From the NCBI RefSeq assembly GCF_044324785.1, contig NZ_CP172129.1: DNA of 64,000 bases. One strand, written 5' to 3'. This stretch comes from Escherichia coli (GTDB lineage: Bacteria > Pseudomonadota > Gammaproteobacteria > Enterobacterales > Enterobacteriaceae). The position numbers were made by a program. This document shows, piece after piece, positions 11,601 to 14,600 of the stretch. Each line of letters begins with the position of its first letter. Position 1 is the stretch's first letter.

Positions 11601-14600
11601 GCTGAAATCGAACTGGCATTTCATTCACCGGAAACAGTCGGAAGCTGGCATGCACGCTGGAGTGACCGGGTGGCAGAGCATGACCTGGAACCCCTGTTCT
11701 GGCAGTGGGGCGAGCGTTTTCCGTCACTGGCCGGAATGGAACGCTGGCAGTGGCAGGATATGCCATTCTGGCAGGTTATCGCGGAAGCCAGTCTGGCAGC
11801 CAGAGAGGCCGGTCATGCTGTCCGTGAGATGGAGCGGTGGATGGTGCCGAACAAACTCCGGGAGGCAGCGTGATGCGGCAATAATCACACGGATTACCCG
11901 TGAACTGGTTGAACGACCAGATTATTTTCAGGGAAAGTGAGTGTGGTCAGCGTGCAGGGATATGAGCTATGATGTGCCCGGCGCTTGAGGCTTTCTGCCT
12001 CATGACGTGAAGGTGGTTTGTTACCGTGTTGTGTGGCAGAAGGCAGAAAGCCCCGTAGTTAATTTTTCATTAACCCACGAGGCCCCCTGTATGTCTGATC
12101 AACAACAGTATGGCCTCTTACCGTGCTTAATGCAAGGAGGAGTAAACCATGAAACTACCGGGAAACGCCCTTATCTGGTGCGTATTAATCGTGTGCTGCA
12201 CGTTGTTAATATTCACACTCCTGACCCGGAATCGTCTGTGCGAAGTCCGGCTGAAGGACGGATACAGGGAGGTTACGGCAAGTTTGGCTTACGAATCCAG
12301 CGGTAAGTAGCAACCTGGAGGCGGGCGCAGGCCCGCCTTTTCAGGGCTGATGCTGGTCTGACTGCACTGAAGCGCCTTTATAAAGGGGCTGCTGGTTCGC
12401 CGGTGGCCCCTTTCTCCTTGCTGGCATTGTGCGGGCATGAACAACCAGACTGCCAGGAAGGCCGTTTCCCTCCGGGAACGGGGATGAACGTGCGCCTGCG
12501 GCGCCCGTTCTTTTCCCCCGCCTTCTCTGTTTATGACCTGTCAGAAATCACATCACCTTCCCTTTGATTATTCTCTTTTTCCTCCTGTTCTGACTCTGAT
12601 TACTGCTGCCCTGATTATTGTCTGTTTTGTTGTTCTCCTGCTTATGCCTTTTCCGGGCGTCCCCCTGGCGGGGCGGGCTGTCGTGAACGGAGCCAGCGGA
12701 GCTGTCTCCGCCCTGGCGGGCTTCCATCCCTGACGCGAAACCCCGGGCTTGCAGCGACCGTTCCGGTCGCGCCGCCTCTGTCGCGCCGTGGCCTGCGCTC
12801 CCGGCATCCCGGCAAAAGGCCGCCGGGATGTAAGGGGCAACGCCGTTTCGCAAACCGCGCTTCACGTCGTTGCGGCGGGTTCCTGCCCGTTGTTGTGTCC
12901 GGTGCCATTCACCTGTTTAAGCCCCTGTCGCCGGGAGCTGATACAGCCACAACCTGCCGCACTGACTGTCCAGGGTAAATGAACAGCCCACAAAATTTTT
13001 TACCCAAAACCCGGTAAAAAATTTTGCGTTCTGCCCAGGACAGGTGCGTCAGGCCGTGGCAGTGATGCCCCTTGCGGCGAAGGTTCTCAAACAGGTGATG
13101 GTGAATACCGGAGGGAACAAACGGCAGGTCCCCGCAAAACGTCAAAACCGCGGCTCCCGAAACTCAACAGATGATGGGGGCTGAAAACCAGAGAGAGGAG
13201 AAAGCAGGATGAGTACCCGAAATATCCACGTTAACATCGCGTCGTACACGCTTCTTGTTGCCGGGAAGAAAAAATACACCGGGGAAGAGTGGGACGTCCT
13301 GGAATTCAGCAGCCTGACTGAGCTGAAAAAATATCGCAAAAGCCACCCGGAAAAGATGGCCTTCAGCTATAGCTATGCGCTCAGCCGGGGTGTGGATACG
13401 CAGTTCCGCCATATCAACATTGCGGAAGCCGATCACTTCAAACAGTTCCTGCGTCAGATTAAGCGTACCGGCCTCGATATCCGGGCTATCTGCTGACCGG
13501 ATGTGATGAATATCCCTCCTGATTGTTGCAATCTTGTTAATGGAGATCGGGAGGGATGATATTAAGCGGAAAAATTTTTTATTAAATTTATTCTTTCATA
13601 AAGGAGTAGCTGTTATGCGATTAGCTTCCCGTTTTGGTCGGTATAATTCCATCCGCCGTGAACGTCCTTTAACGGATGATGAATTAATGCAGTTTGTGCC
13701 TTCGGTGTTTTCCGGTGATAAACATGAGTCCCGGAGTGAACGTTATACGTATATTCCAACAATCAATATCATCAATAAGTTACGTGATGAAGGTTTCCAG
13801 CCATTCTTTGCCTGTCAGAGTCGGGTTCGTGATTTGGGACGTCGCGAATACAGTAAACATATGTTACGTCTTCGCAGGGAAGGGCATATTAACGGGCAGG
13901 AAGTTCCTGAAATTATCCTGCTTAATTCACATGATGGTTCATCCAGTTATCAGATGATCCCCGGAATTTTTCGTTTTGTCTGCACAAATGGCCTGGTGTG
14001 CGGAAATAATTTTGGCGAAATCCGCGTTCCACATAAAGGTGATATTGTCGGGCAGGTTATCGAGGGAGCGTATGAAGTGCTCGGTGTCTTTGATAAGGTC
14101 ACTGATAATATGGAGGCGATGAAAGAAATTCATCTTAACAGTGACGAGCAACATTTATTTGGCAGAGCTGCACTGATGGTCAGGTATGAAGATGAAAATA
14201 AAACGCCGGTGACGCCTGAACAGATAATTACTCCCCGTCGTCGGGAGGATAAACAGAACGATCTCTGGACAACCTGGCAGCGGGTTCAGGAGAATATGAT
14301 AAAAGGTGGATTATCGGGGCGAAGTGCCTCCGGGAAAAATACCAGGACAAGAGCCATTACAGGTATTGATGGTGATATAAGAATCAACAAAGCATTATGG
14401 ATGATTGCCGAACAGTTCAGGGAGTGGAAGTCGTGATAATATAGGTAAAGCCCCGAAAAATTTTCGGGGCTTTACTTATATTGTCATCCTTCGGCATTGC
14501 TATGTCGTCTGATATGCCTCAATTTCATCAACTGGCTTTTCGGTAGTCTGTAAATATTGTGCCCGCGAAAAATGGTCTGGCAGGAGGCTACGCAGTTACC

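What the first reader, a model, noticed from the sequence alone, without database searches (positions are those of the whole stretch)
13209..14478. Third repeat-headed operon: two uncharacterised genes entering the recipient first
Given the nic orientation, the block 13209..14436 (95-aa protein plus a 273-aa protein that I tentatively place in the DUF932 family) is the first coding DNA to enter a recipient after orf169. It has its own Frpo-like repeat (copy C) and a perfect palindromic terminator at 14447..14473. Neither protein has a motif I can assign. Being first in and early expressed makes them strong candidates for establishment or anti-defence functions.
Basis: partly seen in the sequence, partly recalled or inferred. 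Interest (0 to 1): 0.5.

Follow-up and report, generated by a model that had tools for sequence, protein, structure and literature searches.

The report
F plasmid Frpo1–ygeA–ygeB early operon
This is the already-described first "early" operon of F-type conjugative plasmids (single-stranded-DNA promoter Frpo1, then ygeA and ygeB), which is switched on in the recipient cell within minutes of DNA entry and is needed for efficient plasmid establishment, although what its two proteins do at the molecular level is still unknown.

Summary
The window is an IncF plasmid, 100% identical to pECOS88-type plasmids over this block. The two genes are ygeA (orf95, 97% identical to F) and ygeB (orf273, 99% identical to F, full-length DUF932). 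Repeat copy C is 92% identical to F's Frpo1 (also called ssp1a). On the transferred strand it forms a roughly 330-nt hairpin (-144 kcal/mol, z = -9.9), and 13 of its pairs show compensatory changes across relatives. The nic site lies on the minus strand, so the transferred strand is the template for ygeA and ygeB.

Deleting Frpo1 lowers transfer about 4-fold and deleting ygeA about 24-fold. A single ygeB deletion could not be obtained. DUF932 is also already listed as the third-largest leading-region gene family, with a median position of first ORF from oriT.

New detail: DUF932 keeps its place next to oriT in diverged F-like plasmids, whereas ygeA travels with the promoter module, not with ygeB.

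Verdict: already known, with the protein mechanism still open.

The parts
15325..15341 (-). oriT nic site, GTGGGGTGT/GGTGCTTT. The nick falls between 15333 and 15332 on the minus strand, which defines the minus strand as the transferred (T) strand.
   Evidence: Exact single match, 0.02 expected by chance. The identity of the motif as the F nic sequence comes from established knowledge of F oriT.
14732..15241 (-). orf169 / ygfA, a lytic transglycosylase (SLT). It is the first gene to enter, but its sense strand is the T strand, so it is not expressed from ssDNA.
   Evidence: ORF. Annotated as an SLT-domain protein in pECOS88 and F. Published late expression of YgfA.
14447..14473 (.). Perfect 27-nt palindrome (imperfect extension 14437-14483). 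Bidirectional terminator-like hairpin between the convergent genes ygeB and orf169.
   Evidence: Sequence. Terminator scan hit on the - strand. RNA fold -30.9 kcal/mol (+) and -26.2 kcal/mol (-), z about -9.
13615..14436 (+). ygeB (orf273, also called yubP or 'gene 32'). DUF932 protein of 273 aa; Shine-Dalgarno AGGAG at 13602-13606.
   Evidence: 99% identical to F YgeB. PF06067 E = 2.8e-52. AF2 pLDDT 94.2. Invariant H82, C123, N125, H140, E226, G231 in 107 homologues.
13497..13614 (+). ygeA-ygeB spacer of 118 nt. It contains an inverted repeat (about 13509-13563) and a small hairpin that pairs the ygeB Shine-Dalgarno. GC content drops here from about 52% to about 44%.
   Evidence: RNA fold -32.1 kcal/mol, z = -2.85. 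113 of 118 nt identical to F. Composition profile.
13209..13496 (+). ygeA (orf95, also called yubO). 95-aa protein with no family assignment; Shine-Dalgarno AGGAG at 13196-13200.
   Evidence: 97% identical to the F ORF. No hit in Pfam, NCBIfam, PHROG, PADLOC or PDB. Homologues found only on Enterobacterales plasmids. AF2 pLDDT 68.
12565..13191 (-). Repeat copy C, equivalent to Frpo1 / ssp1a (class-1 ssDNA promoter). The hairpin core is about 12841-13171 on the T (minus) strand.
   Evidence: 92% identical to F Frpo1 over 648 nt. Three-copy repeat family. ssDNA fold -144.4 kcal/mol, z = -9.9, against -133.5 kcal/mol for the complementary strand. 99 consensus pairs, 13 with compensatory changes.
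7175..7800 (-). Repeat copy B (Frpo2-type). It heads the ssb-yfjA-yfjB(herB)-psiB-psiA block. Listed for context only.
   Evidence: The ssb start codon ([11 protein letters not shown]) lies right after the repeat. F annotation.
3918..4541 (-). Repeat copy A. It heads a 76-aa ORF, a DUF3560 gene and a methyltransferase gene. Listed for context only.
   Evidence: pECOS88 annotation.

Best explanation
The block is the IncF 'Frpo1 (ssp1a) - ygeA - ygeB' zygotic-induction operon.

How it works: after TraI nicks at 15332/15333, the minus strand enters the recipient 5' end first. Once about 2.5 kb is inside, the 12841-13171 segment of that strand folds into a long imperfect hairpin. The hairpin mimics duplex promoter DNA and is used by host sigma-70 RNA polymerase. 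Transcription runs along the still single-stranded T strand through ygeA and ygeB and stops at the 14447-14473 hairpin. The same transcript can prime complementary-strand synthesis. When the region becomes double-stranded the promoter disappears, so both proteins are made only in a short burst in new transconjugants.

Shown here: locus identity, strand logic, hairpin, operon anatomy. Shown in the literature for the 92-99% identical F locus: ssDNA-dependent transient expression, and a 4- to 24-fold loss of transconjugants on deletion.

Inferred, with about 0.35 probability: YgeB is a host-directed early effector, probably catalytic or nucleic-acid-binding. The grounds are the invariant His/Cys/Asn/His/Glu residues and several conserved arginines on a fold with no solved relative. 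I propose that it removes a barrier to establishment that exists even in E. coli K-12. YgeA appears to be a separate small protein that belongs to the promoter module and tempers or complements YgeB, rather than an obligate partner.
For: Identity:
- 100% identity to pECOS88-type IncF plasmids.
- YgeB 99% and YgeA 97% identical to F.
- Copy C 92% identical to F Frpo1.
- ygfA-ygeB adjacency in F.

Strand logic: nic on the minus strand; genes on the plus strand.

Hairpin:
- -144.4 kcal/mol, z = -9.9, 11 kcal/mol more stable than the complementary strand.
- 13 pairs with compensatory changes across F, window and Klebsiella copies.
- A 68%-identical Frpo-like element sits directly upstream of the Klebsiella DUF932 gene.

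Expression and phenotype: PMC9849209, PMC12672017. Transcription-dependent early conversion at ygeB is reported in bioRxiv 10.64898/2026.01.09.698686.

Protein inference:
- DUF932 comprises 5,589 clusters at 50% identity.
- It occurs in conjugative plasmids, ICEs and jumbo or other phages.
- It is the third-largest leading-region family, with median ORF position 1 from oriT.
- It is next to SLT/oriT in the F, Klebsiella, Serratia and Enterobacter plasmids examined.
- Invariant residues. Confident model without a solved homologue.
- The deletion pattern (delta-ygeA worse than delta-Frpo1 delta-ygeAB) implies that YgeB made without YgeA is harmful.
Against: - No experiment was done on this plasmid; promoter activity is inferred from 92% identity to F.
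- I could not place the -35/-10 hexamers with confidence. The duplex promoter scan found nothing on the + strand upstream of ygeA.
- I had no model coordinates, so I could not test whether the invariant residues cluster in space.
- A Salmonella F-like plasmid keeps a ygeA-like gene while its DUF932 gene is a decayed pseudogene, so ygeB is dispensable in some backgrounds.
- The failure to build delta-ygeB in F is not explained by my model.
Confidence: 0.8

Rival explanations
1. YgeB is a classical anti-restriction protein: a DNA mimic or an R-M inhibitor of the ArdA, ArdB/KlcA or P1 Dar/Hdf kind. The operon would matter only when the recipient carries restriction systems.
For: Samuel et al. [quoted passage not shown] DUF932 occurs in leading regions alongside KlcA/ArdB-type genes, methyltransferases, ssb and psiB, and in phage accessory regions.
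Confidence: 0.1
2. YgeA and YgeB act on the incoming plasmid DNA itself. They would help complementary-strand synthesis, protect the T-strand ends, or assist TraI-mediated recircularisation. This would explain why DUF932 sits next to oriT.
Against: DUF932 is also common in dsDNA phages and in chromosomal islands that have no relaxase or ssDNA entry step. The early conversion at ygeB is attributed to Frpo transcription, not to the proteins. No nucleic-acid-binding domain is detected.
Confidence: 0.2
3. ygeA and ygeB form a toxin-antitoxin-like, mutually neutralising pair. Its role would be addiction or stabilisation of the leading region rather than establishment.
For: Delta-ygeA (3.9%) is worse than delta-Frpo1 delta-ygeAB (32.7%), and delta-ygeB alone could not be built. 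The layout is a small gene followed by a larger one. F-like plasmids carry real TA modules at this position (higBA in Salmonella, relE in Klebsiella).
Against: The two genes are not linked in evolution. ygeA-like genes occur without an intact DUF932 gene. DUF932 occurs without ygeA, after other small ORFs or directly after the promoter. There are no toxin or antitoxin domains. The proteins are undetectable in vegetative donors, which does not fit a maintenance TA. The spacer is 118 nt rather than overlapping genes.
Confidence: 0.1
4. The repeat matters mainly as a priming site for complementary-strand synthesis, and the two ORFs are passengers without a selected function in transfer.
For: Frpo RNA primes DNA synthesis in vitro, and early conversion events at ygeB depend on transcription. 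ygeB has decayed in a Salmonella plasmid.
Against: Delta-ygeA alone, with Frpo1 intact, lowers transfer 24-fold. YgeB is conserved as an intact full-length ORF at 64-72% identity in the same position. Six residues are invariant across 107 homologues that are 37-49% identical to it.
Confidence: 0.05

Closest known systems
F plasmid Frpo1 (ssp1a)-ygeA-ygeB (orf95/orf273; Masai & Arai 1997; Couturier et al. 2023, PMC9849209)
   Same: The genes, order, spacing and position relative to ygfA/oriT are the same. YgeA is 97% and YgeB 99% identical. The promoter repeat is 92% identical. The ygeA-ygeB spacer matches at 113 of 118 nt.
   Different: The apical third of the hairpin in this plasmid is the variant found in F Frpo2, not the one in F Frpo1. 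This plasmid has three class-1 copies; in the 16-kb stretch of F that I searched I found two, the two named in the F literature.
ColIb-P9 / pESBL ssi1-3, class-1 ssDNA promoters of IncI1 plasmids (PMC12672017)
   Same: Three homologous hairpin promoters, each heading a leading-region operon transcribed from the T strand. Transcription start sites were mapped by 5'-RACE.
   Different: The replicon and the downstream genes are different. I did not fetch IncI1 sequence to compare directly.
DUF932 / UPF0380 family (YubP, 'gene 32' of R1, E. coli K-12 YafZ and YfjQ; leading-region family 3 of Samuel et al. 2024)
   Same: Full-length PF06067 match. Same size (about 273 aa). Same location as the first ORF from oriT.
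   Different: Nothing distinguishes this copy. No member of the family has a demonstrated function in the papers searched.
Klebsiella IncFII(K) and Serratia F-like leading regions (Frpo-like element - DUF932 - DUF5983 - SLT - oriT)
   Same: DUF932 is 69-72% identical and lies next to SLT and traM. In the Klebsiella plasmid it is headed by a Frpo-like hairpin element 68% identical to copy C; in the Serratia plasmid only a short fragment (76% over 89 nt) matches upstream.
   Different: There is no ygeA. A DUF5983 gene follows DUF932 instead. In Serratia an unrelated 123-aa ORF precedes it.

Membership tests
Class-1 ssDNA promoter (Frpo/ssi) | Nucleotide homology to an experimentally defined Frpo | tested here: met
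   92% identity over 648 nt to F Frpo1 and 96% over 555 nt to F Frpo2.
Class-1 ssDNA promoter (Frpo/ssi) | Long, imperfect, conserved stem-loop formed by the transferred strand | tested here: met
   -144.4 kcal/mol, z = -9.9 on the minus strand. 99 consensus pairs, 13 with compensatory changes in 7 copies. The T strand is 11 kcal/mol more stable than its complement.
Class-1 ssDNA promoter (Frpo/ssi) | Lies in the leading region, upstream of genes whose template is the T strand | tested here: met
   nic on the minus strand at 15333/15332. ygeA and ygeB are on the plus strand directly downstream.
Class-1 ssDNA promoter (Frpo/ssi) | Reconstituted -35/-10 boxes in the stem and a mapped transcription start | tested here: inconclusive
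   An invariant TTGACG lies on the T-strand 5' arm (13145-13140), followed 17 nt later by an internal loop. No convincing -10 could be assigned, and the duplex scan found nothing. Published maps are in figures that are not held as text.
Class-1 ssDNA promoter (Frpo/ssi) | RNA polymerase-dependent transcription from ssDNA, silent as dsDNA | not testable with these tools
   Shown for F, not for this plasmid.
DUF932 (PF06067) | Full-length match to the family HMM above threshold | tested here: met
   E = 2.8e-52, model 1-227 of 227. All 107 aligned homologues match. phrog_12094 E = 1e-138.
TIGR03299 phage/plasmid-like protein | Score above the curated cut-off (110.7 bits) | tested here: not met
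   19.6 bits, E = 4e-4, partial match only. This is a distant sister group, not the same family.
Anti-restriction proteins (ArdA, ArdB/KlcA, Ocr, P1 Hdf/Dar) | Sequence or fold similarity to a characterised member | tested here: not met
Anti-restriction proteins (ArdA, ArdB/KlcA, Ocr, P1 Hdf/Dar) | Relief of restriction in vivo or in vitro | not testable with these tools
   No published test was found.
Type II toxin-antitoxin pair | Recognisable toxin or antitoxin domain | tested here: not met
   None in Pfam, NCBIfam or PADLOC for either protein.
Type II toxin-antitoxin pair | Conserved co-occurrence of the two genes | tested here: not met
   ygeA-like genes occur without an intact DUF932 gene. 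DUF932 occurs without ygeA.
Intrinsic (Rho-independent) terminator | GC-rich stem followed by a U tract | tested here: inconclusive
   The stem is strong. The scan scores it on the - strand. On the + strand the tail is UUUACUUAUAUU, an interrupted U tract.

The most novel reading that the evidence does not exclude
DUF932 (YgeB) could be the founding member of a previously unrecognised enzyme fold. A His-Cys-His-Glu (+Asn) centre and an arginine-rich surface would define the active site. Plasmids, ICEs and large phages would all deploy it in the first minutes after entry to modify or disable a conserved host factor present even in E. coli K-12. Its small neighbours (YgeA, DUF5983, other roughly 100-aa ORFs) would be interchangeable moderators of that activity.
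Probability: 0.3. Interest if true: 0.6.

Novelty: already known. Interest (0 to 1): 0.3.

Why it matters
IncF plasmids are the main carriers of resistance and virulence genes in E. coli and Klebsiella. In F this operon has the strongest published transfer phenotype of any leading-region unit, a loss of up to 24-fold, whereas deleting Frpo2 or ssb had no significant effect and psiB deletion is reported to have none. Its DUF932 gene belongs to one of the three largest leading-region gene families, with 4,661 members and a median position of first ORF from oriT. Yet neither protein has a known activity.

The scan finding itself adds nothing new to the field. It does point to a well-defined open problem. 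This report supplies a target list for mutagenesis: H82, C123, N125, H140 and E226. It also shows that the fold has no solved relative, and that ygeA and ygeB are evolutionarily separable.

Tried and rejected
**Searches for a function of YgeB**
- PDB sequence search with the single protein: only chance-level hits to sugar epimerases, E >= 0.014.
- PDB search with a profile of 107 sequences: nothing.
- NCBIfam: only a sub-threshold TIGR03299 match.
- PHROGs: only families of unknown function.
- PADLOC: none.
- Pfam on every alignment member: only DUF932.
- Foldseek against PDB: best E = 0.32. The weak RAD52 hits have TM-scores of about 0.1, so a single-strand-annealing-protein reading was rejected.

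**Searches for a function of YgeA**
- No hit in Pfam, NCBIfam, PHROGs, PADLOC or PDB, even at E = 10.

**Other lines that led nowhere**
- Apparent domain fusions of DUF932 turned out to be chimeric or pseudogene products: Ag43, YeeP-type GTPase, a tra fragment.
- I tested whether the small ORFs next to other DUF932 genes are hidden YgeA homologues. hhalign says no, apart from a shared N-terminal leader in the Serratia ORF.
- Gene neighbourhoods in metagenome contigs, a Burkholderia chromosome, a Massilia ICE, a Roseomonas plasmid and a Flavobacterium phage show a mobile-element context but no recurrent informative partner.
- Literature searches for DUF932, ygeA/ygeB and yfjQ/yafZ/UPF0380 found no functional study beyond Couturier et al. 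2023.
- The -35/-10 hexamers could not be located.
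Full report
**1. What is in the sequence**

ORF listing and direct reading confirm a 95-aa ORF at 13209-13496 and a 273-aa ORF at 13615-14436. Both are on the + strand, and each has an AGGAG Shine-Dalgarno 8 nt upstream. The 300-aa TTG-started version in the mechanical ORF list is an artefact of the lister.

The 27-nt palindrome at 14447-14473 is perfect and extends imperfectly to 14437-14483. As RNA it folds at -30.9 kcal/mol on the + strand and -26.2 on the - strand, with z about -9. It lies between the convergent genes ygeB and orf169 (14732-15241, - strand), so it looks like a bidirectional terminator. 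The terminator scan scores it on the - strand.

Three direct repeats of about 630 nt exist, at 3918-4541, 7175-7800 and 12565-13191. The third ends 17 nt before the 95-aa ORF.

**2. Identity of the locus**

The 2-kb stretch is 100% identical to many IncF plasmids, such as pECOS88, and at least 5,000 plasmid records match it. traM, traJ with FinP, traY and traA follow on the right. The hok/sok (flm) module, psiA, psiB and a ParB-like gene lie on the left.

Against F itself (NC_002483):
- the 95-aa protein is 97% identical;
- the 273-aa protein is 99% identical;
- repeat copy C is 92% identical to the sequence upstream of the F genes.

In the F literature these are Frpo1 (renamed ssp1a), ygeA and ygeB. 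ygfA (orf169) lies next to ygeB.

**3. Strand logic**

The F nic sequence GTGGGGTGT/GGTGCTTT occurs once, on the minus strand at 15341-15325. The minus strand is therefore the transferred strand and enters in the order orf169, ygeB, ygeA, repeat C. It is the template for ygeA and ygeB and the sense strand of orf169. This agrees with the published finding that YgfA is made only after double-strand conversion.

**4. The repeat as a single-stranded promoter**

The minus strand of 12700-13210 folds into a hairpin of about 330 nt (12841-13171) at -144.4 kcal/mol, z = -9.9. The complementary strand is 11 kcal/mol less stable, as expected if G·T pairs are selected on the T strand.

I aligned seven copies: three from the window, two from F and two from a Klebsiella IncFII(K) plasmid that is only 67-68% identical. 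The alignment gives a consensus hairpin of 99 pairs. Thirteen of these keep pairing through changes on both sides.

I could not assign the -35/-10 boxes. An invariant TTGACG sits on the 5' arm (13145-13140), followed 17 nt later by an internal loop, but there is no convincing -10 hexamer. The duplex promoter scan is silent.

Function is taken from the literature on F:
- Frpo is used by RNA polymerase on ssDNA and primes DNA synthesis (Masai & Arai 1997, as cited).
- YgeA-sfGFP appears before ss-to-ds conversion and is transient, and deleting Frpo1 abolishes it.
- Frpo1-driven transcripts are enriched in recipients, and class-1 start sites were mapped in the related pESBL.
- Early, rifampicin-sensitive conversion events start near ygeB.

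**5. Published phenotypes**

Transconjugant frequencies after 3 h were as follows:

| Plasmid | Transconjugants |
|---|---|
| wild type | 92.6% |
| delta-Frpo1 | 25.2% |
| delta-Frpo1 delta-ygeAB | 32.7% |
| delta-Frpo1 delta-ygeA | 14.5% |
| delta-ygeA | 3.9% |
| delta-ygeB alone | could not be constructed |

It was done with an E. coli K-12 recipient (I did not check the donor background in the text I read). The pattern also implies that YgeB produced without YgeA is harmful.

**6. The proteins**

*YgeB.* DUF932 is very large: 5,589 clusters at 50% identity with E <= 0.001. In an alignment of 107 homologues that are 37-49% identical to YgeB, six residues are invariant: H82, C123, N125, H140, E226 and G231. 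R85, R87, E99, N104, R208, R209, D212, W218, Q225 and R246 are conserved in at least 90% of sequences.

AlphaFold2 gives a confident model, pLDDT 94.2 and pTM 0.89. It has an N-terminal alpha/beta sheet domain followed by a helical domain. No solved structure matches it:
- Foldseek against PDB: best E = 0.32.
- Sequence profiles find nothing in PDB, and only DUF932 in Pfam.

*YgeA.* It has no match in any library. Its homologues are confined to Enterobacterales plasmids; those I aligned are 59-96% identical to it. Its model is only moderately confident, pLDDT 68.

**7. Context in other elements**

DUF932 keeps the slot next to SLT/oriT/traM in three diverged F-like plasmids:
- Klebsiella: 72% identical, with a Frpo-like element directly upstream and a DUF5983 gene downstream.
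- Serratia: 69% identical.
- Enterobacter: 64% identical.

It is also present in several other kinds of element:
- the ssb/ArdC-like block of a Pseudomonas MOBF/MPF_T plasmid;
- a Massilia ICE, near the relaxase and integrase;
- jumbo phages and other phages.

Samuel et al. 2024 list this family as number 3 of all leading-region families: 4,661 members, median ORF position 1 from oriT. They call it uncharacterised. Their 'anti-restriction' tag rests on 1 of 4,661 members matching P1 Hdf. DUF5983 is their family 72, with median position 2.

ygeA behaves differently:
- In a Salmonella F-like plasmid, a ygeA-like gene follows the Frpo element while the DUF932 gene is a decayed pseudogene and higBA is inserted.
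- In Pantoea, a ygeA-like gene has no DUF932 gene nearby.
- In Enterobacter, a ygeA-like gene heads another operon, and DUF932 is preceded by an unrelated 97-aa ORF.

That 97-aa ORF and the ygeA-like gene share their upstream DNA and their first 15-20 codons, then diverge. So ygeA belongs to the promoter module rather than to ygeB. A GC break at about 13,500 (52% to 44%) fits this modular join.

**8. Interpretation**

I am confident of the locus identity and of the mechanism of expression. For protein function I commit, at about 0.35, to YgeB being a host-directed early effector, probably catalytic. Three observations support this:
- a strictly invariant His/Cys/Asn/His/Glu set plus conserved arginines;
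- use by plasmids, ICEs and phages alike;
- a phenotype even in K-12.

I rank the rivals as follows:
- A role in processing the incoming DNA: 0.2.
- Classical anti-restriction: 0.1. No fold or sequence support, and the phenotype was obtained with a K-12 recipient.
- A toxin-antitoxin-like pair: 0.1. The two genes are not co-inherited.
- Passenger ORFs: 0.05.

**9. Novelty and score**

The small additions here are:
- the conserved-residue list;
- the lack of any solved structural relative;
- the separability of ygeA and ygeB;
- the shared-leader module;
- the natural decay of ygeB in one plasmid lineage.

Interest is 0.3. It is not surprising to a specialist, but it marks an open and tractable question about one of the commonest leading-region genes.

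Noticed in passing
window 12930-13030 (copy C), 4280-4380 (copy A), 7540-7640 (copy B); alignments A1 and A4: The apical third of the Frpo hairpin exists in two variants that differ on both arms while keeping the pairing. Window copies A and C and F Frpo2 carry one variant. Window copy B and F Frpo1 carry the other. The copies therefore appear to exchange segments by recombination or gene conversion, and copy C is not a simple orthologue of F Frpo1.
   Followed up: partly
L011:4912-5082 and L011:8033-8203; L008:6460-6630; window 13120-13290 (alignment A5): Non-homologous ORFs that follow class-1 ssDNA promoters share the upstream DNA, the ribosome-binding site and the first 15-20 codons (M-H/S/N-T-R/Q-N-V/I-N/H-V...), then diverge completely. 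The promoter module seems to carry its own translation-start 'leader', and downstream genes have been swapped behind it.
   Followed up: partly
L012:6704-7414 (Salmonella F-like plasmid, GCA_023792715.1): A decayed DUF932 pseudogene lies in the usual slot next to SLT/oriT. tblastn gives 34% identity over residues 7-244, but only 47- and 79-aa ORFs are called there. An intact ygeA-like gene and an inserted higBA module lie upstream. ygeB is therefore dispensable in some natural plasmids.
   Followed up: partly
window 13497-13614: The 118-nt ygeA-ygeB spacer has an inverted repeat (about 13509-13563) and a small hairpin that pairs the ygeB Shine-Dalgarno with an upstream UUCUUU (RNA fold -32.1 kcal/mol, z = -2.85). 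It matches F at 113 of 118 nt. It may set the YgeA:YgeB ratio.
   Followed up: no
window about 13500: There is a sharp compositional break. The repeat and ygeA are 51-69% GC. ygeB, orf169 and oriT are 36-47% GC. This suggests that two modules of different origin are joined between ygeA and ygeB.
   Followed up: no
window 13140-13145 (minus strand TTGACG): A -35-like TTGACG on the 5' arm of the T-strand hairpin is invariant in all seven copies compared, including the Klebsiella copies that are 67-68% identical overall. It is followed 17 nt later by a conserved internal loop. I could not decide whether this is the promoter -35 box.
   Followed up: partly
window 4662-4763 (- strand): There is an Rfam hit to AS-pc01 (RF02875, 'antisense to pHK01_035', 105 bits). 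It lies just downstream of repeat copy A and upstream of the 76-aa ORF at 4758.
   Followed up: no
window 8665-10668: The 667-aa ParB-like ORF downstream of copy B corresponds to F YfjB. A 2026 preprint (PMC13370423) characterises it as HerB, a CTP-binding ParB-like protein that reprograms host transcription after entry.
   Followed up: no
P0122, P0123, P0216: Several 'long' DUF932 proteins in the databases are chimeras. The DUF932 part is fused to fragments of Ag43-like autotransporters or YeeP-type GTPases. They reflect deletions in E. coli chromosomal islands (CP4-type) rather than real domain architectures.
   Followed up: partly
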